In this document: piece after piece, positions 33,567 to 56,100 of the stretch | Layout of the letters: each line of letters begins with the position of its first letter | How positions within the stretch are numbered: position 1 is the first letter of the stretch | Assembly (NCBI RefSeq): GCF_004010195.1 | Contig: NC_057758.1 | Span: forward strand, 2,306,417 to 2,370,416 | DNA from: Chiloscyllium plagiosum | Lineage: Eukaryota | Length of the DNA stretch: 64,000 nt | Direction: 5' to 3' | Program-made: the position numbers and the translations under genes | The notes under the pieces: generated by a model | Told to the model about the DNA's origin: nothing | Seen by the model: only the letters and a program-made list of their open reading frames with translations | Database searches by the model: none

Positions 33567-33726
33567 ATGGAACGGAATGCTTCTGCCATGGATAGGGATT
33601 TCACGTATGGTCTTCACTGGCTCTTTGCGGATCGACCTTGGATAACAGTAGCCCATCGAGTTTCATACGCACTTCAGGTTATACAGGGCGGCTATTTCCC
33701 CATGCTTGCGATTTTTGGCATCCCTG
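33567..33726 (+). CDS. GPR139/GPR142-like GPCR, first coding exon (N-terminus to mid-TM1), copy A
   Basis: MERNASAMDRDFTYGLHWLFADRPWITVAHRVSYALQVIQGGYFPMLAIFGIP followed by G|GTAAGT, a consensus phase-1 donor. ATG contexts acaATGG (33567) and gccATGG (33588), N-glycan sequon NAS. The Y(Y/F)P.LA..G(V/I)P end is typical of this family's exon 1. Confidence 0.8.
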
Positions 33727-36021
33727 GTAAGTATCCATAAGCCATGTATAACCTATGTTACAGTTTTTCTTGTAAATATTTATGTATCTGTAGTCATCGT
33801 TATTATAAAACAGATATTTGCACTCCACTGTGAACTAAAACCGAAACACTCAAAGAGGAGCACCTCACCATACGATCTGGAAAAGGAGCATAAAAAGTGC
33901 TTTAGCCTGCTTTTCAGTAACTTCCCGCATTGGAATAAAATTCCTCCTTGACACTTTAAAAATAACAAGTAGTAATTCGCTATTCTGAATCTAACAGTGA
34001 ACAGTTACTAAGACATTAACAAGTAGAATAAATCCCTTCAACTAAATACTGTCCCCAAATAAAACAATATTGTGATGGTATGCTGTTCCACATCACCCCC
34101 GTTCATAAGTATAAAATGAACAACATTTATTCTGTTGAAATTACAGCCAGTATACAAGTCTTCCGGGATGTTCTGTGCTTTCTACGCGTTTCTTCTGTCA
34201 GGAATACCTTCTCAATCATTTGTTGCTCAGATGGTCTTTTCTTGAAGAGAAAGATGAGGCCGTGAGAGCCAACGATTGACACTGGACAGCTGAAGGCCGT
34301 TTACTCTGTCGGATGGCAGCTAGCTCTGAGGTCTTTTTACAACTGTCACCTTCTTTTTTACCCTTGATGACATGTCAATATTTCTTCCAGATGTTGTCAA
34401 AACTATCAGAGTTAAATTTAATAGGTTTTTGGTATCAAAGTGCCTTGAGTAAATTGATTGGCTAAATTCTTCGTAAAAACTTCTGCTTGGCCTGCTAATT
34501 GCACGGTCTTTCGATTCAAATGTCTCAGCTTGGGTTATTTGTGTACTTACAGACTTTCACCTGGTGATCACAGGAATCCATTTTCAATCTCTTAGCACCG
34601 ACAAAACACCATCTCTCAAATAGATCACGCCATGTTTGCCCCCTTCCCTCCAACCCCCCCCCACCAGCATTTGACAACTACAATTTTACAAACACCAAGC
34701 GCTAACTTCCTGCTTCCCAATCTGCAATTGCTCTACCAACTTCGCAACAACTCGCACTTGGAAAGGAACGAACCAACATTATGAAAAGATGGCTTCGTTT
34801 AATTTTTCAACTGTAATTCCATTATATTACTAGATCCAAAGCTCAAACCTAGACCTAACTTGCATGTTTTGTTCACATTATATTTTTTTATAATATTTAA
34901 CACTACCGTTTCTATCCTATATAACCATTTTTCTTTTCGTTTCAGGATAAACCATCCGTGATCATTTTTTTCACGACGGACAATATGTACAATCTGTCGG
35001 GTAAATGCTTGTAACCTGACATTACAACGAAATAATCTGATGTACTTATCGTAAATCTTTGCAGAAATATTAAAGGATTGTGATCAGTATACATAATCAT
35101 CTCTAATACTTTGTTTGCCACGTAAACATTAAAATGTTGCAAGGCCATTACCAGCCTCAATAAGTATTTGTCAATGGCTGAATATATTTCTTACCATTGA
35201 ATACTGCACAATGCAAGGCTGAATTTTTCACAGCAATCTCAATCCAGAAATGCCGAATGGACTATCCATCTTGGCCTCCTCCAGCGGTTCCCAATCTTTC
35301 TGATACCAGATTTCAGGCAATTCAATTAACTCCCCGTGATTTCAAGAAGGTACTGGGTGCTGCAAAGTCTAAGGGCCCTGACAACATTCCGGTAATAATC
35401 CTGAATACTCGTGCTCCAGAATTTGTCTCGCCCCATAGCCAGACTGTTCTAGTAAGGTTACAACACTGGCATCTATTTGACAATGTGGAAAATTGCCCAA
35501 GTCACGTTCTGGACATAAGAAGAGGGCAAAGCCAACTCGGCCTATTACCACCCCCATCGGTGTACTGTCGATCATCAGTCCAGTGATGGGAGGAGACAGC
35601 AACAGTGCCATCAAACAGCACGTACTCACCAACAGCACGTTCAGTGATGCCCAGTTTGGGTTCTGCCAAGGCCACTGAACGCCTTACCTCGTTACAGCCT
35701 TGGTTCAAGCATGGACAAAAGATCAGAATTCCAGAAGTGACGTGAGAGTGACTTAATATCAAGGCTGCATTCGAATGAATGCGGCATTAAGGATTACTCT
35801 AAAAACAGGAATCAACGTGTTACAGGGGATCAAATCTCCCGTGGTTAGAGTTTTGCCTGTCACATAGCACGGCAGGCATGGTTGTTGGAGTTAGGTCATC
35901 TTAGCTTCAGGACGTCCCTGCAGACGTTCCTCAGGGTACAGTCCCCGGGCCAGCCATCTTCAGCTGCTTTGCCAATTACCCAAGATCTGAAGTCGGAATG
36001 CTCGCCAGTGATTGCACGTTG

Positions 36022-36176
36022 AGGAGAAAGTGAGGTCTGCAAATGCTGGAGATCAGAGATGGAAATGTGTTGCTGGAAAAGCGCAGCAGGTCAGGCAGCA
36101 TCTAGGGAACAGGAGAATCGACGTTTCGGGCATTCCTGAAGAAGGGCTAATGCCCGAAACGTCGATTCTCCTGTCC
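36022..36176. mobile_element. Penelope-derived short insertion with a terminal inverted hammerhead-type palindrome
   Basis: Flanked by a perfect 17-bp direct repeat CCAGTGATTGCACGTTG (36005-36021 and 36177-36193); inverted arms GGAGAATCGACGTTTCGGGCAT / ATGCCCGAAACGTCGATTCTCC. Confidence 0.85.
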
Positions 36177-36411
36177 CCAGTGATTGCACGTTGTTCAGCA
36201 ACATTCGTGAATCCTCAGATACTGAAGAAATCCATGTAAAATGCAACAATTCTCGACCATATCCAGACTTGGGCTGAAGAGTGGCAAGTAACATGCGTGC
36301 CACAAAAATGCCAAGCTATGACCATCAACTATAAGCGATGGTCTGAACACTGGCCTTTGACATTCAATGGTGTTACCACGTCTGAAGCCCTATCAACATT
36401 CTGGGAGTTAT

Positions 36412-37178
36412 TGTTACGACATTATGGGGAATCCTTCTGCCAATTAAACCAAGCACGCAGAAAAGCTCACCTCACCTCGAGCTCAGTTAAATTATGAGTG
36501 ACAGAGAACTCTATAATTCCACTGCTTAAAGGAAATAATACCATTTTTTTTAGCTCTAAATGTGAACATTAAATAATAACTATTCACAGCTCCAACCCAC
36601 CCGCCTTCTCTTAACTGCTTATTATCTTCCTCCAACTCCAAAACAATATGCTGTTCCAATAAGACACACAGTAAAATTGCAGCAACTTAATCTCAAAACC
36701 ACACAACCGCTGTCGTCTTTAGTGTTTGCCTTCTTCTCGCTGAAGGTCTCCCTGGGTCGTCTGCTTTCTTTTAACTGTGAATACGTTTCAAATGAAAATA
36801 TGCCTTTGATAGAGAGTGTTTCCTAATGTCTTGGGTTTCTCTCGATTGTAGTTTCTCTCTCTCCAATAATCAAAATGCCTCCACCTTTATATCCAGAACA
36901 CGGCATAGTCTCACTGGTTCGATGTTGGCAAAACAATCAACACAAACTCGGTTAGGTTTTCGGATTCTGGGGCATAATTTAAACGGATTGGTTAAATTCG
37001 AATAGTTGCCAAATAAACAACTAAAACTCAGTTATCACCGTCAAATACAAATATTACATATTTCAAATTTTCCAGTACACTCTGGGACTGCCAACTAGTC
37101 ATATGTACTGCTACTCCCAGTTCAGAGTAGCATTCATTCTCTCTGAAAGGCACAGTACACACTTCCAACTTCATAACA
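36412..37178. mobile_element. Solo LTR (767 bp) inserted in the LINE
   Basis: Inverted termini TGTTACGA...TCATAACA and flanks TTAT/TAAT; removing it restores the LINE reading ...CTGGGAGTTAT|CATTGACCAG. Confidence 0.8.
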
Positions 37179-38169
37179 TAATCATTGACCAGAGACTCAT
37201 CTGGACTCACCACATAAGCACAGTTGTAAGAGCAGGCTGGAGGCTGGATGACCGTGGCGACTAGCTTACCTCCTGACTCCTGAAAGCCTGCCCACTATCT
37301 CCAAAGCAGAAGTGAGGAGTGCGATGGAATACTCCACAATTGTCTGGATGACCGCAGCTCTAACAACATGGAAGAAGCTTGACATCATCCTGGACAAAGC
37401 TGCCCCTTTGATTGGCACTGAGTTGACAACCATCCACTCCCTCAACAACTGGCACTAAGTAACAGCAGTGTGTACTATCTACAGGATGCACTGCAGAGAT
37501 TCACCAAAACTCTTGAGACAACTCCTTCCAAACCCACGACCGCTTGCATCTCGAAGGGCAAATACAGCAGGCATTTGGGAACACCGCCATCACGTTCAAG
37601 TTCCCCTCCAAGTCGCTCACTATCCTGAAGTGGAATTGTATCGGTGTTCCGTTACTGTTGCTCGATTAAAATCCTGGAATTCCTTCCTCAGTGGCATTCT
37701 GGTCAACCTACAGCAAGTGAACTGCAACAGTTCAAGAAGGCAGCTCACCATCATCTTCTCAAGGGCAAGTATTCACGGGCAAAAAATGCTGGTTTGTCAG
37801 CGACTGTCACATCCCAGTGAATGAATAAGTACATTATCGAGTCTATTATTGGTAAATAAACTATAGACCTTTCAATTCCTCCTCGTGTAATCGTCATCCT
37901 GGAGCAATACAGCTCCAAAAACTGCATTGCTTGCGTCAGTGGCGACTTTGTAGATGTTCAAAACATTTGGCATGGCTAAAACTGGTGCGTTGATTAAAAC
38001 GGCTTTTAAAATCTCAGATGTCTCCTGGCCTTGTTCTGTCTACTGAAATTTTGTGCTTTTTTTATGGGTGATGCGCAATATCTCTGCAAAATGAACCTCA
38101 ACTCATTCATCTTTCTTTCTGGTTTTCCCTTCGTTTTGGACTTATTGGTTGTGGCACGTTGTCACAAGA

Positions 38170-41100
38170 ATGTCTCAGAACGTCGACTAGGGGACTGCCA
38201 GAAAGGTGAATCACTGATTTAAAAACTGACTTTGAGCATCGGGGACTTCAATTGTTGGTTCAGCAGCAGGAAGAGCTGGAGGGTCGACCAGTGAGCTGCC
38301 GGGAACGTGAATCACTGACTGAAAAACATACCAAGTGAACAGACAGACTGCACGCTGAGCAGGAGCAAACCCGAGACTGCTGAGTAAGTGAAGTTGGTGA
38401 ATATTTGGGGGGCTGTGTTATCTGATACACTACTTACATACTGTCTCCCACCCATCCTCCTCTAACCAAAACAATATATTCTGTGTGCCGGTTTGGTAAG
38501 GCAATTAGTTTTTCGTTCTTTATTTTTCAGAAGTCTCTTTGGAAATTTAGAATAGTGGGAATTGAAGTTTGGGCACTACAACGCTGCTCCTGCAGAATGT
38601 GGAAGGTAAGGCTCGCCAGTAGCTTCCGTGCTGACTTCATCTGCAGGAAGCGCACCAAACTCCAACTCCTCACAAATCGTGTTCGGCAGCTGGAAATGGA
38701 GCTGGATGAACTTTGGTTGTTTCGTGAGGCAGAGGGTGTTATTAAAAGGAGTTACAGGTAGGTAATCACACCAGGTAAAAGAAAAAAGGCAGATGGGTCA
38801 CAGTCAGGGAATGGAAAGGGAAACAGCAGACAGTGCAGGGATCCCTGCGGCCATTCCCTTCCACAACAATTTTATAATTTTGAATACAGTCGGGAGGGGC
38901 GGTTCACCAGGGGAAAGCCATGAGGTGTCTAGCACAGGGTCTGTCCCTGTTGCTCAGAAGGGAAGTGGGGAGAGGTGTAGTCATTAGGGATTTCATAGTT
39001 AGGCGGACAGATAGGAGATTCTGTGAGAACGAGAGACACTCATGTTTGGTGTGGTGTCTCCCAGGTGTCAGCGTTCGTGATGTTTTTGGGATTGTTGAGA
39101 GTGAGCGTAAACATACCCAAGTCGTGGTCCATGTAGACACTAACAACACTGGTCGGAAAAGGCATAGATATTTAAGGCAGAACTTCAAGGCGCTAGGGTA
39201 GAAGCTTCGAGCTAGAAACAACAGAGTTGCTATCTCTGGTTTATTGCCCGTGCCACGTGCTAGCGAGGTGAGGAATAAGGAGAGAGAGGGGTTCAACACG
39301 TAGCTACATGAATGGCGAAAGAGGGAGGGGTACGGATACCTGGATAATTGGGGCTCATTCTGAGGTAGATGGAACATCTATAAACAGGATGTTCGACACC
39401 TGAACCAGAGAGATACCAATACATTTGGCGGGGAGGAATTTGCTAATGGTCTTCGGGAAGGTTAAAATTAATTCAGCAGGTGGTTGGTAACCGAATCATT
39501 GTTACAGTGTACAGGAGGATGAGAGTGGTGAGGATAGAAATACGGGTTCAAGGTCGCAAGCAGTCAGGTGGTTTGAAGTGTGTCGACTTCAACGCCAGGA
39601 GAATCCAGGATAAGGTGAGTGAACGTACAGCATGGGTTAATTGCTTAGACATCGATGTTGTGGCCATTTCGGAGATGGTTGGTGCAGGTTCCAGGATTTA
39701 GACGTTTCAGAAAGAACATAAAAAATGGTAAAAGAGGGAGAGATATGGCATTTCTCGTTAAGTATAGTATTACCGTGGCAGAAACCACGCTTGAGGACTC
39801 GTCTACTGAGTATGTCGACTCAGGTTAGAAACAGGAAAGGAGAGCTCAACCTTTTGGGAGTTTTCTGCAAACCTCCAGAGCTGTAGCAGAAAGGGTAGCA
39901 AAGATGATTCTGGATAGGAGCGAGAGTAATAGGATAATTGTTATGGGGGTGGTGGCTTTAGGGTGGTTTCCAAACATTGACTGGAAGTAATATAGTTCGA
40001 GTAATTTAGATGGGTCAGTTTTTGTCCTATGCGCAGAGGGGTTTCCTGACACAGTATGCAGACAGGTCAACAAGGGTGAAGCCACAATTGATTTGGCCCT
40101 GGGTAATGAATCCGGCCAGGAGTTCAATCTGGAGGGTCATGAGCACTTTGGTGATAGTGACCACAGTTCGGTTATGTTTACTTTAGCGATGTGGTTTACT
40201 AAAGAATTTGAATCTCTTGTTAAGAGGAATAATAAGGCTTATTTTAGGATGAGACGTGAAGGCTCAGTTGGGGCGTTAGAGAGTTACAAGTTGTCAGGAA
40301 AGACCGAAAGAGAGAGCTAAGAAAATCCAGGTGGTGATATGAGAAGGCATTGTCGGATAGGACTATGGAAAATCCCAAAACTTTCAATAGGTATATCAGG
40401 AATCAAAGAAAGACTAACTAAGATTGGGGCCAATCAATCAGAGCAGTAGCAAGTTGTGCGTGGACACCAAGTAGATAGGCAAGCACTAAATGATTATCTT
40501 CGATCAGTATTCACACAATAACAAGACATTGTGGTCGAGGAGAATACTGTATTACTCGCTGTTACACTAGATGGGATTAAGGTTCACAAGGAGGAGGTGT
40601 TCGCATTTCTAGAAAGAATGATAATCGATATTTCATCTTGGTCGGATATAAGTTATCCCAGCATTTTCTGAAGACTTAGGGAGGAGATTGCAGCATCTTT
40701 GGCTCTGATCTTTATGTCGTCAACGGCGGCAGGAATAGTGCCAGAAGACTGGAGGATTGTAAACGTTGTCCCCTTGTTCAAGAAAGGGAGTAGGGACAAC
40801 CCTGGCAATTATAGACCAGTGAGCCTTACTTCGGTTGTGGGTAAAGTGTGGGAAGGATTACAAGATAAAACATTTATACTCATTTGGAAGGGAATAATTT
40901 GATTAGCGGTAGTCAACACAGTTTTGTGAAGGGTAATTTGTGCCTCACAAACCTTGTGGAGATTTCTAAGACCGTGGATGAGGGCAAAGCGGTTGATGTG
41001 ACGTTTTCTGGATTTCAGACATACATTTGATAAAGTTCCCCGCGGGAGGCTATTGCTGAAAATATAGAGACATGTGATTGAGGGTGATTTAATGGTTTGG

Positions 41101-42310
41101 ACAAAATTGATTGATGGGAAATGTTCATCCTGGAGATGAGTTACAAGTGGTGTTCCGCAGGGATCTGTTTTGGGGGCACTGTTTTTTAGTAATTTTTAGA
41201 AATGGGCAAAGCGGTTGATGTGACGTTTTCTGGATTTCAGACATACATTTGATAAAGTTCCCCGCGGGAGGCTATTGCTGAAAATATAGAGACATGGGAT
41301 TGAGGGTGATTTAATGGTTTGGACAAAATTGATTGATGGGAAATGTTACAAGTGGTGAGTTACAAGTGGTGTTCCGCAGGGATCTGTTTTGGGGGCACTG
41401 TTTTTTTGTAATTTTTAGAAATGATCTGTATGATGCTTTAGGACAGTAAAACTGCAGATGACACTAATGTTGGTAGAGTTGTAGGTTACAGAGGGACATA
41501 GGTGAGCTTTTGTGCTGGGTTGAGAGCTGGCAAATGGAGTTTAGTTAGAAAAGTGGTAGGTAATTCACTTTGGAAGGAACAAAACATTAATAAAGAGCAC
41601 TGGGCTAATGAAAAGATGTTTGGTAGTGTAACTGCGTAGGGAGATGTCAGTGTCCATTTTCATAGATCTCTGAGAGATGCCACCCAGGTTGATAGGTTTT
41701 TTAAGAAAGCAAAAAGTCTGCTAGCTTTTATTGGTCAAGGGATTGAATTTCGGAGTCATGTGGTCATGCTGCAGATGTACAAAATATTGGAGTATTGCAT
41801 GCAGTTCTGGTTTCCGCGTTATAGGAGTAATGTAGAAGGTTTGGAACGAGTTCAGAGGACATTTACTGTGATGTTGCCTGACATTGAGGGAAGGTATTGA
41901 GCAGAAAGCCGAAGGGACTTGAGGCTATTTTCGTCAGAGAGAAGAAGCTTGACAGGTGGCTTAATAGAGACATATAAGATAATCAGAGCATTCAATATGG
42001 TGGACAGTGAGTCTCTTTCCTAAGATGGTGATGGCTCGTATGAGGGGATGTCGCTTTAGTTATAGATATAGGAGTTATAGATATAGGACAGATGTCAGAG
42101 GTAATGTTTTTATTCAGATAGTAATATGCGTTTGGAATACCCTCCTGGCAATAGTAGTAGACTCGCCAAATTTAAGGACATTTAAATGATCATTGGATAG
42201 ACATGTGAATGAAAATGGAAAATTATAGGTTCGATGGGCTTCAGTTTGTTTTCACAGATCTGCACAACATTGAGGGCCAAAGGACCTGTATTGCACTGTA
42301 ATGTTTTATG
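38170..42310 (+). mobile_element. Near full-length decayed CR1 LINE (5'UTR, ORF1 zinc-finger/leucine-zipper and esterase, ORF2, tail)
   Basis: CSCRMW...FICRK..LQLLTNRVRQLEMELDEL (38483-38761); VWCLPG...VVHVDTN (38920-39201); PEDWRIVNVVPLFKKG...NYRPVSLTS (40699-40902); ~220-bp tandem duplication at 40981-41420. Confidence 0.9.
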
Positions 42311-44018
42311 TTCCATTTTCCAATTTCAGCGCATTTCTTTTCTTGTAACTGCTCAGTTCCCCTGTTTTCTTCTGGTATTTCTACGACAATAGGCATCAAT
42401 CCAACGTGTGGTCAAGCTACACCATTTTCAAGAATAAACTATTCCTGGAATAGCCAATTTTTCCAATCCTCATGCTATCATTCCCCAGACTTGACTGTAC
42501 TTTTTAGCCTTAATTTACACAGGAGAACATTACTCTTTTCTCCATTTATACCTCAGATTTCCACTCTCTCGGGCAATATTTCAGAAGAAGTGCAAACCTT
42601 TTCATCTCTTATTATTAGAGACAGATCACCTCCCATAGCTCTCAATGTTTTAACTTATCTTCCTCAGTCCCCTGAATTAATCTTACACACACATGTGAAG
42701 TCTTTGAATACATCGAGTGCTAACATACTATCCAGCCCATAACGAGGCTGTGCATTCTGCTGCAGCTCTTCGAATTCTCGCAATATTTTCTTCATTATTT
42801 TAACTCATCCCATTTGTTCAGCGCCTTTTACCACATTCTTTTTCCCAGTGTCTTTCTTAAACTGCCAGTACTTTGACTTTGTGTGCCCCACCTTATTGCA
42901 ACGAAAACACGAGTTCTTTCATCTCTTTTCCAAACTCCTGGATTTCTTTATTTTTCATTATATGTGATAAATTGTTCCCAGTGTGATCTAATTTTTGCTT
43001 TTCATTGAAGGATCTTCCTCTTTCCCAATTTCTAGCCCTCACGGAATGAAATTCCATTCTGAAGCTAGATTTAGATTTGTGCCCTAATACATATTCATCC
43101 GCCATCGCTGCAGCTCTTCTCGCTGTTATAACTTCCGGCTCCTCAGCATGAGTTCTTATCATTTCTGTAGGTAAGTTTGCAAACTCGATAAGCAGAATGA
43201 TACCTCTAAGAGCCTAAAGCGTCTTTTCTATCTTTAATGCTCTCATCAATTTATCAGAGTTGCTTTGTTTAATTCTTTCAAACTTGATATAAGTCTGACT
43301 TGGTTCCTTTCATAAATGTTTGATACGCTGTTGATGTGCTCTGGTACCAATTCGTAAGTACTCAAAATAGCCTCTTATTTTAAAAAAGTCATTTTTTTAT
43401 CATTCTCTTCTGATACATCTTGCAAAAAAATCATTAGCTCTAACTTTATTTAGATCAACAAAACCCACCTTGTCTCTGGCCAGTTAATCTGTGTCGCCAC
43501 TTTCTCAAAGGCGAACCCTTTGAACCCGATGCAAATAGCAAAATGATAAGAAATTTATTGAGTCTCATAAAACCTCGATTCTCTGTTTATTTCCTATTAC
43601 AGTCCAATCTTAATTATAAAGAAATCTCAATCATCTGCGTTAATAGACACATATTCATACTGATTCTTTACTGAAGCAGGAAACGTGCAACCTAGTTTTA
43701 GTTATTTTTATGCACCGGGAAGAAGAAGGTTGAGGAAGTGAGATCATTAAATCATCGCATCTATTAAGGTTAACAGTTGAATGGAGTCTCACAAGGAATA
43801 CAACCTGACAATGACAAAACTCCAGCAAGCACATATTTAGTGATGTCTGCTCGATTCGAGCGAATCACCCACATGTAGATAATTAACAACGATTGTTCCT
43901 CTCAGTAACAAAATATCAGCGCTCTTAGGTGTGGTACTCTATGTTTGAAAGTAATCAGTGCAATTTGGCATTGACTGACACGCAGTAATGGGCGGAACTG
44001 AGAATTGCAAGTGCTGGA

Positions 44019-44204
44019 GATCAGATTGGTGCTGGAAAATTTAGTAGTTGAGGCAGTATCCAGAAAGCAGGAATATCGACGTTTCGGGCAGGTGCCCCTC
44101 ATCAGGAAAACCCTTCCTGATGAAGGGATCTTGCCTGAAACGTCGATTTTCCTTCTCCTCGGATGCGACCTGACTTGCTGTGCTTTTCCATCACCAATCT
44201 AATC
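44019..44204. mobile_element. Palindromic pair of Penelope tails (MITE-like hairpin)
   Basis: Imperfect ~90-bp inverted arms centred at ~44110; each arm carries CTGATGA...GAAACGTC. Confidence 0.8.
44071..44110 (-). ncRNA. Minimal type I hammerhead ribozyme motif (Penelope-associated)
   Basis: Minus strand UUC-CUGAUGA-G-GGGC-ACCU-GCCC-GAAAC-GUC-GAUAUUC: intact core boxes, paired stem II, GUC triplet and a palindromic ACGU stem III. Confidence 0.6.
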
Positions 44205-44756
44205 GTGACACCCAGTAATACCTACTCTCAGATAACCTCCTGTCCCTGACTTTACAGTACAACCCGTTACATCGAAAGCAATAACTTTTCACAAGAAAAA
44301 CAATGCCTGTGGTCTAGAAAGCATTGAGCCATTATTTTTCTGCAGACAATGTCTTCGAATGAAATGTTCCATTGCCAGTGTAATAACTTTATGCTTTAGG
44401 GGAAGTCCACGGGCATACTGAAGTTGTTTAGTTTTTGCCCCCTTTGAGCACACATTTTACAACAGCCCATAAACTTTCCCATAAACATTCTCTGTATAGC
44501 TGAGGGACTTGTGTGCAGCTGTGGTCTCTGCACGATAGGAAGGATAAGATTTCATTGGAACGGATGCAGAAGAGAATCACCAGACTGTTTTCTGGTCCAG
44601 AGTGTTAGCTATGATGACAGGCTGGATAATATTTGGTTATTTCTCTGAAACAAGGAAGTCAGAGAGCGAAGCTAACAACGGTGCATCTGTTTGCGACAGG
44701 CATGGGTACAGTGAGTAGAAAGCAGCTTCTCCCTGTTGTGAAAGCAAAGGTAGACG

Positions 44757-44875: not shown

Positions 44876-46164
44876 TAGGATATCTTGTTTTAAAAGCAAG
44901 GGGCGCACTTTCAGAGAACAGAGGAGATATAAGGCTATTTTTCGCAAAGATTGGTAGTGGTGTTCTGGAATGTATTGGCTGTGAGGTTATTTGAGGGTTG
45001 CATCCTCACAAAAATAAAGAGCATTTGGATCAGTACTTGAAGTCTCAGAAAATTCAGGGCTGCATCAAACTGATCTTTGTGATGAACACTGAAGCTCAGT
45101 GGTTGCTAGGGGCTTTGAGATGGATATTATCTTTTCCAAACTACTTTAGCAATCGGCAGTGAATGCATTGTTGTGTATATGATAGCAGCATAAGTTTGTC
45201 CAACGTGTTTAGCCCAGAATGCAGTACTACGAATGTTTAGTATTTGGGTACCAGTCCATTACCAACAGAAACATAGAAACTCTGAGCATTCGGCGTTTCA
45301 ATCTTGCTCTGTGAGAACTATATCGAACCCCTTCTTGAATGCTTTCAATGTTGCGCCCTCAATCATTTTCTATGGCAGAGAATTCCACTGACTCATCAGT
45401 GTCTCAGTGAAGACACCTCTCCTGATCTGCCTACTAAGTGTCCTACTTTGTATTCTTCCCTGGTCTGGACTCCAATCACCCCTGGTCTGGACTCCATGGT
45501 TTCTGGGAATATCAAACCAGTGTTAATTCTGTCTAGCCTTGTTGGAGTTTTATCGGTTTGTATGAGACACCCCCATCAATGTGGCAGGACTAGCTCCAAT
45601 GGGAAGTGGCGGGGGCAGTATTTCGTGATCAAATTCTTTGCAGGTCAATCAGCACGACCGTTTGAGTGCCTTCACTGATGGCATCAGGGAGTTAGTGTTG
45701 AATGGGTTGTGGTTTGGGACCCCCTCTTTCTCATGATCTGTTGGATGATAATGACACTTGCTACGTGGAGCGCAGTCTTTACTGTGATACTGTCTCAGTG
45801 CCTTTGCGAACGAACAGTGGAACATGTGTCCAGTATTAAAGAACCCACCATCTTGTTGACCTGTATCCACACGCTGGGCACATCTTGGCAAAACAATTTC
45901 CTTCTTCTCCCGATTCATCTCCAGAAGGTTGGCTACGTTTCCATTTTGGGCGAAATGCTTCTAGTTCTGCAGACAACGACAGGGTCTTTTTCTCACTGTT
46001 GAGTAGCCATTTTCGTGCGCTCTCTCTCTTTCTCTCTCTGTCAAGGTGGTCTCACTCGGATACTGCTTTTAATCCTGCCCTCAGCCCTCTTTTTGACATA
46101 AAAGCCTGGGGTTAAGTAAATGGCCAAAGTGGGGTGAGAGATGCAGGGTTTGTAGGCCATGACC

Positions 46165-46490
46165 GAATGGTTATATCACTAGAGTATTAATCCAGAGATT
46201 CAGGTTAAGCATTGCGTCTCATTTTCGAATCCACCCCTCATGGGTTTTGCAGTGAATAACACTTGGTATGAAGTGTTTAATGCCGGGCACGAAGCCATTG
46301 TTAATCATCTTATAATCCCATCTTGCTCAGTAATGTTACTAGGAAGGCAATGTACCATCGTTAAGCAATCTGGCCTCCAGACCTATAGCAATGGAGTTTA
46401 TTCTTAAATGACCACTCGTGCAATTAGGCTTGGGAACAATAAATGCTGCACTGGCCAGCGATACTCATGTACATGTGATTGAATAAAAGG
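46165..46490 (+). mobile_element. Decayed tRNA-derived SINE sharing the 3' tail of the Zenon-like LINE
   Basis: TTCGAATCC B box ~46226; tail GCAATTAGG...AATAAATGCTG...GCCAGCGA...TGAATAAAA resembles 37760-37828; older copy at ~20780-21110. Confidence 0.5.
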
Positions 46491-47009
46491 AATACGGTAG
46501 CCCTAGTTTGTATAAACATCCTGCACTGTCCAGCAGCTTCATAACATCTCAACAAACATCGTGAGATCCTTTCGTTCTTTCCTTTTAGGAGCCGGTGTTA
46601 TCCATTTCGGAGAGGTCCATGTTTTCACCTCAATGTCATTTTTTTGTGAATGGCGGGTTGCGGGAAGATGTCTCTGTGGCTCCACCACCACACTCCTGAC
46701 TAGTTTCTGCTCCCAATAAACACTTTTTCTCTCGATCTATTCCAGTCGCCAATTTCTCACTTCTCCCTTTCTTGACTTTGCTGTCTATCTTTCTCACCTC
46801 TTGGCTACACCAAGGTAACCGTGTCATCCACTAAGGGGTGAGTTGCGTCCAATTGAGAACAATTTGATTTTACCTGCTGTACCCTATCTTCAGCATTTTC
46901 AAGAACATAAGATTATCCCAGCAACAATCGTTCAACTGGGTGATTGTGTTGTCCGCTTTGTTTCTCCGACCGAGGCGTTTAGCTGTTTTATTTGAGTTCT
47001 AGTGCTCTT

Positions 47010-49275
47010 GGGGGTGGGGGGCTTTAAACTAACTCTGCAGGGGCATGGGAAGCCAGACTGCAGCTTTAGGGTGCAGGACCTGGAGTGTACGGAGGTTAGG
47101 AACATGGCATCAATTTCAAGGGAGGGTGCCCGTAAACAGGAAAGTGGCTTTAAGTGTGTATACTTCAATGCAAGAAGTATACAAAATAAGGTAGGTGAAC
47201 TTGCAGCGTGGGTTGGTACCTGGGACTTCGATGTTGTGGCTATTACGGAGACATGGGTAGAACAGGGACAGGATTGGCTGTTGCAGGTCCAAGGATTCAA
47301 ATGTTTTAGTAGGGTCAGAGGTGGGGGTAAAAGAGGGGGAGAAGACTCGTCATCTGAGGTAGTTTGGACTGAGGTGAGGAATAGGAAAGGTGAGCTCACC
47401 CTGTTAGGAGTTTTTTACAGGCCTCCTAATAGTCCTAGAAACGTAGAAGAAAGAATTGCGAGGATGATTCAAGAGAAGAGGGAAAGTAATAGGGTGGTTG
47501 TTATGGGGGACTTTAACTTTCCAGATATTGACTGGGAAAGCTATAGCTCGATTACTCTAGTGATGGAGAGGGATACGTGTGCACTACAGGGCAAGAGTAA
47601 TAGCTGGGGGCAGGGAAATTATGATGCGGTGAGGCATGACTTAGGATGTGTGGCTTGGAAAAGTAAGCTTCAAGGCAAGGGCGTAATTGATATGTTGAGC
47701 TTGTTCAAGGAGCAACTATTGAGTGTACTTGACAATATGTACCCGTCAGGCAGGGAGGAAAGGGTCGTGTGAGGGAGCCGTGGTTTAATAAGGAGTTGGA
47801 ATCCCTTGTTAAATGGAAGAGGGCGGCCTATGTAAAGATGAGGCGTGAAGGTTCAATTGGGGCGATTGAGAGTTTAAACTAGCCAGGAAGGACCTTAAGA
47901 GAGAGCTAAGAGCAGCAAGGAGGGGACATGAAAGGTCCTTAGTTGGGAGGATTAGGAAAAGCCTAAGGTTTTCTATAGGTCTGTCAGGAATAAAAGAATG
48001 ACTAGGGTAGGAATAGGTCCAGTCAAGGATAGGAGTGGGAAGTTGCGTATGGAGGCTGAAGAGATTGGGGAGACACTGAATGAATACTTTTCGTCAGGAG
48101 TAGTGCCAGAAGATTGGAGGCAAGCAAATGTGGTTCCCTTGTTCAAGAAGCAGAGTAGGGATAAACCTAGTAACTATAGGCTGGTGAGTTTCACTTCTGT
48201 TTTGGGCAAAGTCTTAGAGAGAATTGTAAGGGATAGGATTTATGAACATCTGGATAGGAATAATATGATCAAGGATAGTCAGCATGGTTTTGTGAAGGAC
48301 AGGTCGCGCCTCACAAACCTTATTGAATTCTTTGAGAAGGTGACTAAGGAGGTGGACGAGGGGAAAGCGGTAGATGTGGTGTATATGGATTTTAGTAAGG
48401 CGTTTGATAAGGTTCCCCATGGTAGACTACTGCAAAATATGCGGAGGTATGGCATTGAGGGTGAGTTGGAGGTTTGGATAAGGAGTTGGATGGCTGGAAG
48501 AAGACAGAGGGTAGGAGTTGATGGCAAAGGTTCATCTTGGAGTGCCGTCACCAGCGGTGTTCCGCAAGGATCTGTTTTGGGACCATTGCTGTTTGTCATT
48601 TTTATAAATGACCTGGAGGAGGGGTTAGAAGGTTGGGTGAGCAAGTTTGCGGATGATACGAAAGTCGGAGGAGTGGTAGACAGTGAGGAAGGATGTGGCA
48701 GGTTACAGCGGGATATAGAGAAGCTGCAGAACTGGGCAGAAAGGTGGCAAATGGAGTCCAATGTAGCTAAGTGTGAGGTGATTCACTTTAGTAAGAGTAA
48801 CAAAAAGATGGGGTACTGGGCTAACGGTCAGATACTTGGTAGTGTGGATGAGCAGAGGGATCTTGGTGTCCATGTACACAGATCTTTCAAAGTTATAGTA
48901 AATAGTGCGGTGAAGAAGGCATATGGCGTACTGGCTTTTATTGGTAGAGGAATTGAGTTCCGGAGTACTGAGGTCATGTTGCAGTTGTATAAGACTCTGG
49001 TTCAGCTATTACAAGTGGGCATAGCTTTAAATTAAGGGGGGGGGGGTAGGTATAGGACAGATGTTAGGGGTAGGTTCTTTACTCAGCGAGTCGTGAGTTC
49101 ATGGAATGCCCTGCCAGTAGCAGTGGTGGACTCTCCCTCATTATGGGCATTTAAGCGGGCATTGGATAGGCATATGGAAGATAGTGGGCTAGTGCAGGTT
49201 AGGTGGGCTTGGATCGGCGCAACATCGAGGGCCGAAGGGCCTGTACTGTGCTGTATTCTTCTATGTTCTATGTTC
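47010..49275 (+). mobile_element. CR1 LINE ORF2 copy with several internal deletions
   Basis: ORF 47002-47772 APE (YFNARSI, ITETW, YRPP, GDFN); ORF 47998-49035 RT (DFSKAFDKVPH, GVPQGS, FADDTK); (TTCTATG)n tail. Confidence 0.93.
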
Positions 49276-49861
49276 TCCCAAGTCCAACTGAACTCCTTTG
49301 CCTTCTTTGGCTAGTTTTGTTTACATCTCTAAGATGTATGCCCTCGATTTTAGCCACACTCTTTTTGTCCGCCTCCCATTTTTCAATCAAGTCTGAATTC
49401 TTATCAAGGAGGTGTCTGATTTAATTGGAACAGGATCTGAATGCTTGCTTTATGATGCCAATATCTAACACTTCCTCCACCTTATTCTCATCATCCATGT
49501 TGGTGTTGTTCTGTTACGGGATCTCTGGAGTGTCCATCTATTTCTCAGCTGGAGAGAAAGAATTATCACCTTGCCCCATCTGTGCTGTCTCTGTTTCTAT
49601 AGGTGAACGGGTGGATTTCACCCCTTGTCCCATCATACTCTATTGCTTCATTGGCTGATGTAATCTGTAGTTTGTCGACTGTGGCATTTAAAATTATTAT
49701 CTAAATAATTAAGAAATATCTTCAGGCCTCCCACTTCTGTCAGCCATTTAAGCAGTGAGTTCTGGATACACACATTTAGTTGACGCCTTTCCCTTCGCTC
49801 GCCTAAGGTATTTATTTTCCTTCACTTAAATCAATGCCCTCGTGGTAATTGATTAGAGTCA

Positions 49862-50180
49862 GAGAATCATAGAGATGTACAGCATAGAAGCAGACCCTTC
49901 GGTCCAACGCGTCCATGCCGACCAGATATCCCAACCCAATCTAATCCCACCACTCCATCAAGAGAAATATTTATTCTGTCTACCCAGATAAACCCTGCCA
50001 GATCCTCCAAAGACGATAACCACGATAAATCTAGTCCCATCGGCCAGCATTTGGTCCATTTCCCTCTAAACCCTTCGTTTCTTTTCACCCATCCAGACAC
50101 GTTTTTTAAATGCTGTATTCATACCAGTCTCCACCACTTCCTCTGGTCCTTCATTCCATACACAAATCACCCTCTGCGAA
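49862..50180 (-). mobile_element. CR1 3' tail fragment
   Basis: CATAGAGATGTACAGCA...AGACCCTTCGGTCCAAC, same tail as 6093-6577. Confidence 0.75.
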
Positions 50181-50349
50181 ACGTAGGCGCGCTTATTTTT
50201 GTGTGAGAGAAAAAGAAGCTGTTAATGAAATTATTTACAAGGGATTTCGCCCCACATCTTTGCAAGAACAGAAAACTATCACTGATTAAGCCATTCTACT
50301 TGAAATAGAATGGATATATACTGTTCGAATTTTTAGATATCTCAATTTT

Positions 50350-52712
50350 CTCAATGGAGAAGAATTTGTTAAGTGAGTAAAAGAAACATTTCTGATTCAA
50401 TATGTGTATGTACCTTCTCGAGAAGGTGCAAACCCTGACTTACTCTTGGGAAATAAGGGAGGGTAGGTGAATGAGTTATCAGTGAGGGAGCATTTTGGGT
50501 CCACCGATCATAATTTTATTCGATTTAGAATAGTGATGGAAAAGAATAGACCTCATCCAAAAGTTGGAAGAAGGCTAATTTTGAAGGTGTTACGTAAGAA
50601 ATTTCAAAAGCTGGTTGGGGCAGATATTCGCAGGTTGCCTGGAAAATGGATAACCTTCAGAAATGAGATAACGGGAGTCCTGAGACAGTGTATTCCCGTT
50701 AGGGTGTCTGGAAAGTCTGGTAGGTGTAGCAAATCCTTGAGAATTAAGAAATTAAGGCTCTGGTTAAGAAGAAAAGTAAGCATGTGCCTCAGGTACAGGC
50801 AAGATAAATCAAATGTATCTTGAGAAAAGTATAAAGGCAGTAGGTGCATACTTAACAGGGAAATCAGGAGGCAGAAGGGGACATGAAATAGCTTGGCAAA
50901 TGGAGTTAACGAGAATCCAAAGGGCTTTCACGAATATATTAAGGACAGAAGGGTAAGTAGGATGAGAACAGGACCCCTTAACGATCAGCAAGGCGGTCTT
51001 TGTGTGGAAGCACAGGAGATGGGTGAGATACTAAACGAGTATTTTGCATCAGTGTTTACTGTGGGAAAGGACATGGAACGTATAAAATGTAGGGAAATAG
51101 ATGGTGACATCTTGAAAAATGTCCATATTACAGAGGAGGAACCGCTGAATGTCTTGAGAAGCATAAAATTGGATAAATGCGCAGGACCTGATCGGGGTAC
51201 CCGAGAACACTGTGGGCAGCTCGGGAAATGATTGCTGAGCGCCTTCCTGAGATACTTGTATCAGCGATAGTCACAGGTGAATTGCCAGAAGACTGGAGGT
51301 TGGCTAACCTGGTGCCACTGTTTAAGAAGGGTGGTACGAGATCCTGTCGTCTGTGTTGTGAAAGTTGTTGGAAGGATTTCTGAGGTACAGGATGTATATG
51401 TATTTGGAAATGCAAGAAATGATTAGGGAGAGTCAACATCGTTTGTATATGGGAAATTATGTCTCACAAACTTGATAGAGTTTTTTGAATAAGTAACAAA
51501 GAGGATTTATGAGGGCAGAGCGGTTGCCGTGGTCTATTTGGACTTCAGTAAGGCGTTCGGCAACGTTCCTTATGGAAGTCTGGTTAGCAAGGTTAGATTT
51601 CATGGAATAAAGGAAAACTAACCATTTGGTTAAAGAACTCGTTCAAAGATTGAAGACAGAGAGTGGTGGTTGAGGGTAGTTTTTCAGAGCCCTGTGACCA
51701 GTGGAGTGCCACAAGAATGGGTGCTGGGTCCACTGCTTTTCGTTATTTATATAAATGATTTGGTTGTGAGCGTAAGAGGTATGGTTAGTAATTTGTCAAT
51801 GACACCAAAGTTGGAGGTGTATTGGTCAGCGAAGTAGGTTACCACAGATTGCAACGGGAGTTTGATCAGATGGGCAAATGGGCTGGGAAGTGACAGATGG
51901 AGTTTAACTTAGATAAGTCTGAGGTGCTACATTTTGGGAAAGCAAAATTTAGCAGGACTTATGCACTTAATGGCAAGATCCTAGGGAGTGTTGTTGAACA
52001 AAGATACATTGGATTGCAGGTTCTTGGCTCCTTGAATGTGAACGCGCAGATAGATAGGATAATGAAGAAGGCGTTTGGTATGCTTTCCTTTATTGATCAG
52101 AGAATTGAGTGCAGGAGTTGGGAGGTCATGTTATGGCTGTACACGACATTGGTTAGGCCACTTTTAGAATATTGCGTGCATTTCTGGTCTCCTTCCGATC
52201 GGAAGGATGTTGTGAATCTTGAAAGGCTTCTGAAAAGACTTATAAGAGTGTTGCCAGGGATGGAGGATTTGAGCTGGAGGGGGACGTTGACTAGGCTAGG
52301 ATTTCTTTCCCTGGAGCTTCGGAAGCTGAAGGGTGACCTTATAGAGGTCTATAAAATCATGAGGGATATGGATAGGTTAAATAGACAGGGTCTCTTCCCT
52401 TGGGTCGGGCAGTCCAGAACGAGAGGGCATAGGTTTAGGGTGAGAGGGGAAAGATATAACAGATTCCTAAGGGACAACTTTTTCTCGCAGAGGTTGGTGC
52501 ATATTTGGAGTGAGCTGCCAGAGGAAGTGGTGGAGGCTAGTATGATTGCAACATTGAAAACGCATCTGCGTAGGGATATAAATAGGAAGAGTTTGGAGAG
52601 ATAAGGGCAGAGTGCTGGCAGGTGGGATTAAATTGAGTCTGCATATTTGGTTGGCATGGAGATGTTGGACCAAAGGTTTTGTTTCTGTGCTGTACATCTC
52701 GACGACTCTATG
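50350..52712 (+). mobile_element. Decayed CR1 LINE ORF2 (APE end, tether, RT, tail)
   Basis: EILNEYFASVFT (50893-51231); ORF 51897-52604 with LVRPLLEYCVHFWSP and RTRGH. Confidence 0.9.
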
Positions 52713-53369
52713 AAAATATAGAAGGCATTTGCTATCAACAACGATTTTCTGAATTTGACAACCGCCTATAAACATTGCAAACACAGTAATGTACAAACAT
52801 TCTTAATTCATCAGGTCACATTTAATATTGTATCTCAGTATACAAGAACCACAGTTCACTACAAAATGCAGTGACTTATATTTTCACCGTCCTGGTGATA
52901 ATCCTTTTGAGATTGACTGCTAATTATATTCATATCTTCATTCGTATTTTGCCATGTTCCTTTGGTGTTATTAACTCTTGGTCTTAAATTAAAAGGAGAA
53001 TAGTGTCTTTTTTTGGATATCTTCAGTGCCTCAACACCAACTGCACAGAAGCAGGAATCACAGACGAAGGATTTGGATAGCATTCCAGACTGAGATAAAG
53101 AGAAATTACTTTGCTCAGAGAGAATTCAGTCTGGTGAATACAAGCAGGTGGGCCGAACAGAATGCAATTTCCCTGATTAGAGATGGTGTCAGGAAGCCTT
53201 AGTTGGTAGATATATACAGGAGTGTCAGGTTTTCTGGCACTCTGAAAGCTAGCTCTGAGGGAGATGGACCATTGTCAAGGATTTCCACGCGTAAACAATG
53301 TGTAAATTGTGAATGAGATACTGGCTTCTTGAAGTTATTTTAGTGAGATTATGGTAGCCTCGGCTAGAG

Positions 53370-55570
53370 GTAGATATTGACACGAAAACATTGAATGTTT
53401 ACAAGAGGTAGATTTTTTTTCAGAACTGAAAGTTTTGGGGAGAAAGCGGGAACAGTCATGGAGTTACATCATCAGTCTTCATTGAATTGAATATTGCAGC
53501 AGAATCGAGGGGAGGAATGTTCTACTCCGGCTCCTATTACCTACGCTTTTGCTTTTAATATTGATAGTAAATGGTGTACACCGTTCAAGTGCACATTGGA
53601 ACAGTAAGGTTCATTGCTCAAGGATGGGGAATGAATTAGGAGAGTCGATTTATTCAGTATTGGATGTGTGTGGACCTAATGTCGTCTCAGGTTTTTTTTT
53701 TGGAAGCTAAACCGGTGCTAAATGCAACACCAACATGATGGAGACTTCATTCAGTTTCGAAGTGAGAGGGAGTTTCAAGATTCGCTTGGACGATACACAA
53801 CATGGATAAATTGTTCAATATGCAAAGGTCAAAAAGTTTGGCACTTTACTCACTGAACATTGGAAGAACAAAAGATAATCTCATTGAAACACGTAGCATT
53901 CCTTACATTTATCTTACAGTATAAATGCTGAAAGGACGTTTCCTCTCCTAAGTCAGTCTCAGGCCAGAGGGCCTGGTCTCACTAATAAGGATAACCTTAA
54001 GAGGAATGTGCAGAGGGATTTCTTCTCCTAGTTGTGAGTCTCTAGAACTCCTTGCCGCAGATAGCTGTAGGGTGTGGGGGGCGGGGAGGGGGTAGTCCCT
54101 CTGCAGATTGAAAGCTGAGATAAACACACTCATTATCAGTAAGGGAATGAATCTTTATAGTGTAAAGACAAGGAAGTAGGCATGAAGAATGTCGGATCAG
54201 CTGTGAACCTGATGAATGACGAAGCAGAGAGGAGTGGTTGAACTGCAAACCCTTATTCCTACTTGTTATAATCATATGGAGTTGGTAGCTGGGTAAAGGG
54301 CTCCATCTGTGACAACAGCCAGGGACTTCTCAGTTATGTCATCGGACACATTGTCCCTGGATGCGTGGTGAGAATGAAGAAGAGGTCAATTGGAAACACT
54401 TTAAAGATTCTTCAAAAGAATCTGGACATATGTTTGCAGACATTCGAAAGATATGAGAAGTTGAAAAATGTTGTAATTTCACCATTAAAGGTCATTGGAT
54501 ATTGTGCAAAAATATGAGCGAAACAATCAGCAAGTGATGTTAAATCAAAATCCAACACTTCATAGATGCAAATTAACACACGTGTTTTCAGTGAGACATA
54601 TCTTTCGAATATATTAGAGACAGCAAAGCAAGGAGTGAAATTGAAAACTACCCACTTTCCCGGATGCGTGCTATTCCAACAACACTCAAGAAACATGACC
54701 CGTATCCAATAAAAAGCAGCCTGCTTGATTGGCATCACATCAACAAATATCCGTTCTCACCACCACCGAAGCTCAGTAACAGCAGTGTGCACTATCCACA
54801 GGAGTGCACTGTTTACAGTGTCAGGAAATTGGAAGTTGCTGGCTTCAAATATCTTGAAGGGAGACAGGCACAGAACAAAGAGATATGCCTCATACAGTAA
54901 GTGGTTGGGATTTGAAAGCAACTGCATGGAAACAGTGTGAAAGCATGTTTAAGAATTTCTACCACGGGCAATTTTAAAGGCAAAGCATAGTGGGAGGGGC
55001 TGGGAATGGGTCGAATAAACACAGGTCTGTAAAAATAGCGTGAGGACTCCGCTTTGCACAACATAGAACATAGAACAATACACGCAGGAACTGGCCTTTT
55101 GACCTACGATGTTGTGCCAACCACGATGGCAAATTAAATAAATCCCTTATGCATGTCCTTGGTCCATATTCTTCCATTCCTTACAGAGTCATGTGTTTAA
55201 CCAAACGCACCTGCCTCCTTCACGCCACAGAAGCGCGTTTCCGACAACTGCCAGTGTACAAAATGCACCTCTAATCTTCTTTAAACATTTTCCCCGCACC
55301 TTCAATGCACACTCTCCGTTATTATTCATTATACATGTGGGAAAAAGATTCTCACCACCACCTAATCCATGCATCTCATGAAATTGTAGACTTCTATCAA
55401 GTGTCACTCAGCCCCTGAGTCCCTAGAGAAAAACAAGCCTAGATTTTTGAGCCTCTCATATCCGCATACCCTCTAATCCAGGCAACATCCTGGTAAACCT
55501 CTTCCATATCTTCTCCAAAGCCATCACATAAATCTTCTAATATAGTGTCCAGAAATGAATGCACCTTTTA
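53370..55570. mobile_element. Patchwork of short CR1 3' fragments (both strands) and a Zenon-like fragment (54640-54810)
   Basis: CR1 tail motifs at ~53460-53545, 53830-54275 and 55060-55570 ((CATAGAA)n); TTLKKHD...KAACLIG-like segment. Confidence 0.6.
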
Positions 55571-55928
55571 CTGAAGTTTTGATCCTACCAAGGGGGAAAA
55601 GCTGTTCATAAAAAAACAAAGGTTATGAAAGGAATTTTAAAAACCAACAACTTATCAACACACATTATATGTGTTGTTTACACGCCTGCAAGATATCAAG
55701 GAGAGTAGAACTGTAAAAAATAAGTGTTCTGAAGATGAATCCGATTGGAAAAATATCATCACATCCGAGTCTTTCTTTCAGCAGATTCCACCAACTTGCT
55801 GAGTCCAGTCAGAAGTTTCGGTTTTTTTCTCTTTACATAATTTTCTGGATCACCTTCCTGAGCTACACTGCACTATTATGGCAGTTCAACATCCCTTGAA
55901 AAGTGAAAGTATTGAAAAAGAACATTAC

Positions 55929-56100
55929 CAGGAACACCAATGATAGCCAGGAACGGAAAATAAAAGTGTTGGATAACCTGGAGTAGGTATGTTAGTCGTA
56001 ACTGTAGGTGGATAGTTGTAGAAAAAGAATGAATGGAAGAGGATAAAAGCCTCTCCACTGTCGTACCACTCCAATCTAAAGGTATCAGTTTCTGATCCAT
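55929..56100 (-). CDS. GPR139/GPR142-like GPCR, first coding exon, copy B
   Basis: MDQKLIPLDWSGTTVERLLSSSIHSFSTTIHLQLRLTYLLQVIQHFYFPFLAIIGVP followed by G|GTAATG, a phase-1 donor. Clear paralogy with 33567-33726 (LQVIQ..YFP.LAI.G.P), including upstream nucleotides. Confidence 0.8.

What the first reader, a model, noticed from the sequence alone, without database searches (positions are those of the whole stretch)
33567..56100. Two convergent GPR139-like first exons with no second exon in the window
Seen: paralogous exon-1 sequences on opposite strands 22 kb apart, both with open frames and good phase-1 donors. I found no trace of the large exon carrying TM1 end to TM7 (N-x-x-x-IVIL, FDRF/Y..IC type motifs) downstream of either, over more than 30 kb for copy A and the whole 56 kb for copy B. 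Established: vertebrate GPR139 is split by an intron in TM1, and sharks carry many GPR139-like paralogues. Inference offers three options: two genes interleaved in each other's long introns; orphan exons from segmental duplication or inversion; or an array of alternative N-terminal exons spliced to shared 7TM exons, as in protocadherin or UGT1 clusters. The last would be a novel receptor-diversification scheme.
Basis: partly seen in the sequence, partly recalled or inferred. Interest (0 to 1): 0.7.

Follow-up and report, generated by a model that had tools for sequence, protein, structure and literature searches.

The report
Stranded first exons, shark receptor family
Two first exons of a very large shark receptor gene family face each other here with no second exon anywhere in the surrounding DNA examined, and they are likely leftovers of genes that lost their main exon rather than parts of a system in which many first exons share one receptor body.

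Summary
Observation confirmed. A (33567-33726, +) and B (56100-55929, -) are open, phase-1 first exons of the shark family that databases label 'probable GPR139' (65 and 55 bits on an exon-1 profile). An exon-2 profile finds nothing in the window (best 0.9 bits; shuffles up to -0.8); planted whole exons decayed by 10-20% were found in 32 of 32 trials. The shared-exon idea is not supported: exons on opposite strands cannot reach one exon 2 in cis, and across 160 annotated relatives exon 1 and exon 2 vary together (Mantel r 0.51). A and B are old paralogues, not an inverted duplicate. Best reading (0.55): stranded first exons, most simply one deletion of both second exons from a tail-to-tail pair. 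Rivals: sequence missing from the assembly (0.17), interleaved genes with introns over 28 and 56 kb (0.15), borrowed distant exon 2 (0.08). No genome was held, so nothing beyond the window was searched, and RNA was uninformative. The scan has reported this family and stranded first exons before on other DNA, also in this genome. The family is the interesting part; this pair is ordinary debris.

The parts
33567..33726 (+). Exon A: first coding exon (N-terminus and first half of TM1) of a shark 'probable GPR139' family gene; open, 53 codons + 1 nt
   Evidence: 65.1 bits on the exon-1 profile; held whole in an independent run's 902-nt contig with one substitution in the exon
33724..33734 (+). Phase-1 splice donor of A, near consensus
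   Evidence: 10 of 11 matches to the recalled U1 consensus; same position as in 13 exon-1 read-through relatives
33360..33428 (+). Upstream element of A shared with other loci; likely the family promoter
   Evidence: summed contig depth 255-454 against about 32 nearby in run X1 at 82% likeness, 6 contigs diverge before 33360; weak alignment to B's upstream DNA, 31 of 1000 shuffles reach it
55929..56100 (-). Exon B: first coding exon of an old paralogue; open, 57 codons + 1 nt, begins with one family N-terminal repeat unit
   Evidence: 55.0 bits; region held by 8 of 24 listed runs in 2 studies
55921..55931 (-). Phase-1 donor of B, weakened (+5 T)
   Evidence: 7 of 11 U1 matches; 0 of 13 read-through relatives have Asn after the donor codon, all have Lys, Glu or Met, which put a purine at +5
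56252..56268 (-). Homeodomain-like site next to an O/E(Ebf)-like site, 152 nt upstream of B's ATG; the aligned site in A is degenerate
   Evidence: single match in the window; pattern drawn from B itself and from recalled consensus letters, so not an independent test
33727..55928 (.). Interval between the donors: no exon 2, at least 42% repeats, CR1-type LINE pieces mostly on the + strand; would hold the deletion or assembly junction
40982..41423 (.). About 222-nt tandem duplicate (95-99%) inside a CR1 LINE; possible contig join, not tested
62021..62285 (.). 265-N assembly gap downstream of A, flanked by opposed LINE pieces with a 523-nt 99% inverted copy

Best explanation
A and B are open first exons of two old paralogues in a very large shark two-exon receptor family, no second exon lies in the window, and they are likely stranded relics whose second exons were lost from the chromosome. 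Shown: identity of the exons, phase-1 donors, absence of exon 2 in the window, old divergence of A and B under past purifying selection, co-variation of exon 1 and exon 2 in relatives. Inferred: the two genes once stood tail to tail (exon 1A, exon 2A, exon 2B, exon 1B) and one deletion between their introns, probably through the LINE copies that fill the region, removed both second exons (about half of this reading's weight); otherwise two separate partial duplications, deletions or inversions. Inferred: they make no receptor now and look intact because they are short and sharks mutate slowly.
For: No exon 2 in 64 kb, with power shown: whole exons planted after 10-20% decay were recovered in 32 of 32 trials, 8 of 16 at 30%; 20 of 23 thirty-residue pieces of held-out relatives scored 14-62 bits, the 3 misses lying in the integrin part of a chimeric model. 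Since the first exons are intact, an exon 2 of equal age would have been seen: it is absent, not decayed in place. pN 0.23 versus pS 0.68 over 23 codons (Fisher p 0.0016) and unalignable introns (425 of 1000 shuffles) show two long-separate, once functional genes. Relatives duplicate as whole units: Mantel r 0.51, 0 of 999 permutations; 98 of 100 pairs with exon 2 at least 97% identical have exon 1 at least 80% identical. Hints of decay: B's donor +5 T; A and B score in the bottom tail of held-out intact models (42-49 bits, median 62; at most 4 of 58 score lower); A carries Phe where 159 of 160 relatives and another individual's copy have Tyr. Intactness is cheap: both exons stay open with probability 0.36 after 2% neutral change, about 29 million generations at the epaulette shark rate of 7e-10 (PMC10587355, passages; another species).
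Against: Both frames, both ATGs and both GT donors are intact (probability 0.08 after 5% and 0.007 after 10% neutral change); A's donor is near perfect and A keeps an upstream element shared with other loci; B keeps a clean homeodomain/O-E-like site. The low profile scores may only reflect another subfamily, since relatives were picked by likeness to P0004. No deletion scar was identified. Nothing beyond the window could be searched, family intron lengths were not measured here, and contiguity of the assembly between A and B was not shown (no piece spans the stretch).
Confidence: 0.55

Rival explanations
1. Assembly artefact: A and B are first exons of normal genes whose second exons were collapsed, dropped or misjoined in this assembly (between A and B, or in the N gap).
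For: Near-identical tandem duplicates of 175, 192 and about 222 nt, one of them between A and B, and a 523-nt 99% inverted copy at the gap edge look like contig-join scars; near-identical exon 2 copies exist in other sharks (100 pairs at 97% or more), which invites collapse; intact frames and A's strong donor.
Against: No N between A and B; both exon regions are real in independent runs; one run covers all 30 bins of 31000-40900 (though partly by repeats). A and B have no near-identical twin among the proteins found (best hits 40-54%), so their second exons need not be collapse-prone.
Confidence: 0.17
2. Two working genes interleaved head-on, each with its own exon 2 beyond the window (introns over 28-30 kb for A and over 56 kb for B).
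For: Open frames, A's donor and upstream element, past purifying selection; CR1 pieces between 38 and 56 kb are mostly antisense to B (6141 versus 168 bases, but only about 5 elements).
Against: Needs 22 kb of overlapping antisense transcription; B's intron would cross an endogenous retrovirus with an open gag on its own strand and mostly sense LINEs left of A (3655 versus 1470 bases); B's donor is weak. Earlier scan notes give spans of 4.1 and 9.2 kb for intact genes in this genome (unchecked).
Confidence: 0.15
3. Shared or borrowed second exon: surplus promoter-plus-exon-1 modules splice over long range to an exon 2 that also has its own first exon (protocadherin/UGT1-like in effect).
For: All family exons 1 end at the same phase-1 position, so any would fit any exon 2. 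One catshark locus has annotated isoforms in which an unrelated first exon joins the same exon 2 (P0206, P0207). Earlier scan notes report borrowing elsewhere (unchecked).
Against: A and B are on opposite strands and cannot share one exon 2 in cis; 2 exons in 64 kb is no tandem array; exon 1 and exon 2 co-vary, and the 2 exceptions involve a LINE-derived mis-model. Exon 2 is itself highly multiplied (2019 proteins at E<=1e-10, not all of them this family) and encodes TM2-TM7, so swapping exon 1 would change little of the predicted pocket (inference).
Confidence: 0.08
4. Unspliced exon 1 read-through gives short single-membrane-span peptides (57 aa from A, 74 aa from B) with a regulatory role.
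For: B reads on through the donor with Gly-Asn, like TM1.
Against: The read-through tails are not conserved between A, B and 13 relatives; A stops 4 codons after the donor.
Confidence: 0.03

Closest known systems
Shark and ray automatic gene models 'probable G-protein coupled receptor 139' (e.g. P0004 = XP_048419718.1, Stegostoma; 116 of the 120 listed relatives bear this name)
   Same: N-terminal repeat unit, TM1-start motif, exon boundary directly after the TM1 proline, phase 1.
   Different: No exon 2 in the window; A and B are only 40-54% identical to their best hits over the aligned exon-1 part.
GPR139 (human; PDB 7vug, 9m42) and GPR142
   Same: Nearest solved structure to the family; two-exon gene (PMC7318219, passages). 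That its intron sits at the same TM1 position is recalled, not tested.
   Different: True orthologues are 70-96% identical to human; P0004 is about 29% identical over residues 45-169 (my count); A and B alone do not hit GPR139.
Variable-first-exon clusters: protocadherin, UGT1, GCNT2 (PMC1885805, passages)
   Same: First exons with their own upstream elements and a common splice phase; such clusters also hold relic exons.
   Different: There the variable exons stand in a tandem array followed by one set of constant exons and encode the recognition domain; here two exons face each other, the second exon is the multiplied and pocket-bearing part, and the two exons co-vary.
Birth-and-death receptor clusters with pseudogenes and fragments (olfactory, vomeronasal; general knowledge, recalled)
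   Same: Many paralogues, mixed orientation, LINE-rich surroundings, gene fragments.
   Different: This family has a coding intron, so fragments appear as lone exons; its ligands and tissue are unknown.

Membership tests
Chondrichthyan 'probable GPR139' family, first exon | TM1-start motif (R..Y.L..IQ..Y[YF]P.LAI.G[VI]P) matching the family profile | tested here: met
   65.1 and 55.0 bits, background at most -0.5; column table
Chondrichthyan 'probable GPR139' family, first exon | N-terminal repeat unit before TM1 | tested here: met
   B has one unit plus a decayed one upstream, A a partial one
Chondrichthyan 'probable GPR139' family, first exon | Phase-1 GT donor right after the TM1 proline | tested here: met
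   B's donor is weak
Chondrichthyan 'probable GPR139' family, complete gene | Large exon 2 (rest of TM1 to TM7) downstream on the same strand, inside the window | tested here: not met
Chondrichthyan 'probable GPR139' family, complete gene | Exon 2 further away on the scaffold | not testable with these tools
   no genome held; metagenome scans found no relative
GPR139 orthologues | About 70% or more identity to human GPR139 | tested here: not met
   family member P0004 about 29% over residues 45-169 against 70-96% for orthologues
GPR139 orthologues | Activation by L-Trp and L-Phe | not testable with these tools
   pocket is encoded by the missing exon; ligand data
Protocadherin/UGT1-type variable-first-exon cluster | Tandem array of first exons, all able to reach the same downstream constant exons | tested here: not met
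   only 2 first exons in 64 kb, on opposite strands
Protocadherin/UGT1-type variable-first-exon cluster | Few constant exons shared by many variable exons | tested here: not met
   in annotated relatives exon 1 and exon 2 co-vary; no pair of family first exons under 80% identity shares a 97% identical exon 2 apart from one mis-model. Models are automatic and not from this genome
Protocadherin/UGT1-type variable-first-exon cluster | Each variable exon has its own promoter | tested here: inconclusive
   shared upstream element at A, motif at B; activity unknown
Protocadherin/UGT1-type variable-first-exon cluster | Junction reads from several first exons to one constant exon | tested here: inconclusive

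The most novel reading that the evidence does not exclude
The stranded promoter-plus-first-exon modules are still live and splice across tens of kilobases to second exons of other family members (or of unrelated genes), each on its own strand, so that shark receptor clusters hold more promoters than receptor bodies; this would create chimeric N-termini and tune how often each receptor is chosen, a loose, opportunistic form of exon sharing in an undescribed chemosensory repertoire.
Probability: 0.1. Interest if true: 0.7.

Novelty: new member of a known kind. Interest (0 to 1): 0.27.

Why it matters
As relics, the two exons matter little: they mark turnover in a large receptor family and warn that lone first exons in sharks stay open for very long. 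The family itself matters more. One member retrieves 2019 proteins at E<=1e-10 and the 120 listed are all from sharks, while published shark chemosensory repertoires count a few dozen genes (PMC10116579, passages). Four searches found no paper on it, and two shark sensory papers do not mention it in their main text; the library lacks most subscription papers and one supplement could not be read. If long-range borrowing were shown, it would be a new way to diversify receptors.

Tried and rejected
Whole genome: none held, so the +/-300 kb search was impossible. Word-index protein searches with A and B alone found nothing; PDB and ESM Atlas searches with the exons alone gave nothing usable. A weak third-exon hit at 19246-19320 (E 0.042) was rejected: not among the exon-1 profile's scoring places. 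A weak Pfam Srx hit at 41983-42186 (E 0.002, below cut-off) lies in a CR1 tail. A tblastn hit of P0011 on B is the N-terminal repeat read in another frame. RNA: no RNA holder listed for B; no read or contig on exon A in X15 (RNA is a guess), X9 (2% read) or X13 (6% read, nothing laid, no test); the X15 signal near A proved to be intronic repeat. Tissue is unknown and the libraries are poly(A) single-cell, so this is no evidence either way. Selection test on A from one other individual: 1 of 160 exon sites versus 11 of 798 flank sites differ, p 0.70, no power. Metagenome scans for family loci, meant to give intron lengths and donors: 115 pattern matches but 0 relatives, 0 matches. LINE orientation was too sparse to locate a junction. 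'A and B are an inverted duplicate of each other' was rejected. A literature search for orphan-exon precedents gave 0 papers. Rows dropped: 40 of 120 relatives lacked my boundary pattern and were left out of the profiles; 29 of 189 lacked one exon and were left out of the co-variation test; 304 of 452 frames were not sent to Pfam but were covered by the six-frame profile search.
Full report
Observation. The window is repeat-rich shark-type DNA with one 265-N gap at 62021-62285. Exon A runs from an ATG at 33567 to 33726 on + (160 nt), exon B from an ATG at 56100 to 55929 on - (172 nt); both are open and end one base into a codon before GT. They match each other at E 5e-10.

Identity. A profile of the two peptides, scored against 1.84 billion representatives, returned 31 proteins; by inspection 28 are family members and 3 are unrelated repeats. 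Of 10 looked up, 6 are named shark or ray models and 4 are unnamed. The full-length hit P0004 (XP_048419718.1, Pfam 7tm_1) retrieves 2019 proteins at E<=1e-10; the 120 listed are all shark proteins at 62-70% identity to it, and 116 are named probable or putative GPR139. The nearest solved structure is human GPR139, but only at 29 bits and about 29% identity by my count, whereas orthologues are 70-96% identical (PMC7318219, passages). So A and B are first exons of a shark-expanded cousin family, not of GPR139. Thirteen relatives that are exon-1 read-through frames break off at the same position, which confirms the exon boundary.

Absence of exon 2. Profiles were built from 80 of the 120 relatives. 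Exon 1: A 65.1 bits, B 55.0, next -2.1. Exon 2: best 0.9 bits against -0.8 to -4.5 in six null sequences, with stops read as X. tblastn and Pfam on 149 frames agree. Power: whole exons decayed 10-20% were recovered 32 of 32 times, 8 of 16 at 30%, 2 of 16 at 40%; fifth-length pieces 13 of 16 at 10% and 6 of 16 at 20%. Because the first exons are intact, a coeval exon 2 would be seen. It is physically absent from 55.9 kb downstream of B and 28.3 kb of gap-free DNA downstream of A. Nothing outside the window could be searched.

Relation of A and B. Over the last 23 codons pS is 0.68 and pN 0.23 (p 0.0016); the first 500 intron bases do not align (425 of 1000 shuffles reach the score); upstream DNA aligns weakly (31 and 20 of 1000). 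They are old paralogues that were each under purifying selection, not a recent inverted copy.

Shared-exon model. In UGT1 and protocadherin clusters a tandem array of first exons is followed by common constant exons (PMC1885805, passages). A and B face each other, so any exon 2 for A lies on + to its right and any for B on - to its left; they cannot share one in cis (direct from the sequence). At family level, among 160 of 189 annotated proteins with both parts, exon-1 and exon-2 identities correlate (Mantel r 0.51, 0 of 999 permutations); 98 of 100 pairs with exon 2 at least 97% identical have exon 1 at least 80% identical; the nearest neighbour by exon 2 is among the top three by exon 1 for 83 of 160 (3 expected). 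The two exceptions involve P0178, whose start looks LINE-derived. Caveats: the models are automatic, come from other sharks, and pairs are not independent. Against my reading: one catshark locus has an annotated isoform with an unrelated first exon on the same exon 2 (P0206, P0207), so splicing to exon 2 is not rigid.

Alive or dead. For life: open frames, A's donor (10 of 11 U1 matches), an upstream element at 33360-33428 that many other loci share, and a homeodomain/O-E-like site before B (pattern chosen after seeing B; adjacency of such sites in mouse odorant-receptor enhancers from PMC5608512, PMC7804114, PMC12547500, passages; the consensus letters are recalled). For decay: B's donor has +5 T (7 of 11), unlike 13 of 13 relatives; A and B sit in the bottom tail of held-out intact models (possibly a subfamily effect); A has Phe at a position that is Tyr in 159 of 160 relatives and in another individual's copy, though B has Phe there too. 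Simulation gives both exons a 0.61, 0.36, 0.08 and 0.007 chance of staying intact after 1, 2, 5 and 10% neutral change. At 7e-10 per generation (PMC10587355, passages; a different shark) 2% is about 29 million generations. Intactness therefore limits the age of the loss but does not show function. RNA was uninformative.

Assembly. Both exon regions are real in independent runs, but no contig spans the interval. A 222-nt tandem duplicate at 41 kb, two similar ones near 2.1-3.0 kb and the inverted copy at the gap could be join scars, so loss from the assembly stays open.

Mechanism. The simplest history that yields two facing first exons with nothing between is a tail-to-tail gene pair that lost both second exons in one deletion; the interval is at least 42% repeats with several same-strand CR1 copies. 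No scar was found, so this step is inference; separate partial duplications, deletions or inversions would do as well. Long introns are possible but B's would cross a same-strand endogenous retrovirus with an open gag, and earlier scan notes give 4.1 and 9.2 kb for intact genes here (unchecked).

Earlier notes. My first reading gave long introns or misassembly 55% and orphans 30%. Notes on stranded first exons in other sharks and in this genome, together with my own tests, moved me to relics. Those notes are unchecked and are not independent evidence; 799 notes in this genome fit 'GPR139 exon'.

Novelty and score. Lone exons in a birth-and-death cluster are a known kind of thing. The family was not found described in four searches; of the papers listed I saw only listings unless passages are cited above; PMC11979771 and PMC10116579 were searched by term in the main text only, and the supplement of the former, which holds olfactory expression tables, could not be read. 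Interest 0.27: the pair is probably debris, with a 10% chance of long-range exon borrowing.

Noticed in passing
window 2-1126 (-), open at the window's left edge: Open 375-codon gag frame of an endogenous retrovirus (Pfam Gag_p30, E 1.6e-18), on the same strand as B; a 42-nt tandem array lies at 1600-1740.
   Followed up: partly
window 2112-2461, 2596-2977, 40982-41423: Near-identical tandem duplicates of 175, 192 and about 222 nt (95-99%): real duplications or contig-join artefacts.
   Followed up: no
window 60083-60605 and 62286-62808: 523-nt 99% inverted copy, one arm starting exactly at the end of the N gap; orientation beyond the gap may be unreliable.
   Followed up: no
window 31000-34434: Run X1's contigs differ from the window by 0.6-2.9% around A, whereas 80-88% of 31-letter words are shared around B (about 0.4-0.7% by inference): possibly an old divergent haplotype or a paralogous segment around A.
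   Followed up: partly
window 56252-56268 (-) and 33360-33428 (+): Homeodomain-like plus O/E-like site before B, degenerate in A; A's element is shared with many other loci. A lead on olfactory-type regulation of the family.
   Followed up: partly
proteins P0135, P0202-P0207 (catshark, XP_038630088-102): A catshark tandem group with several annotated isoforms per gene, including an unrelated alternative first exon on the same exon 2 and an alternative 3' end: suggests RNA support for this subgroup.
   Followed up: partly
proteins P0033, P0011, P0178: Chimeric database models: receptor fused to an integrin, receptor ending in an out-of-frame N-terminal repeat, and a LINE-like first exon. Annotation of the family is unreliable.
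   Followed up: partly
window about 3000-3800 and 42500-43300: Two inverted, 77-79% alike pieces of one repeat family; the 2-7 kb copy looks like a decayed LTR retrotransposon by eye, not tested.
   Followed up: no
window 38884-52601: CR1 pieces between A and B are nearly all on + (6141 versus 168 coding bases), while those left of A are mostly on -.
   Followed up: partly
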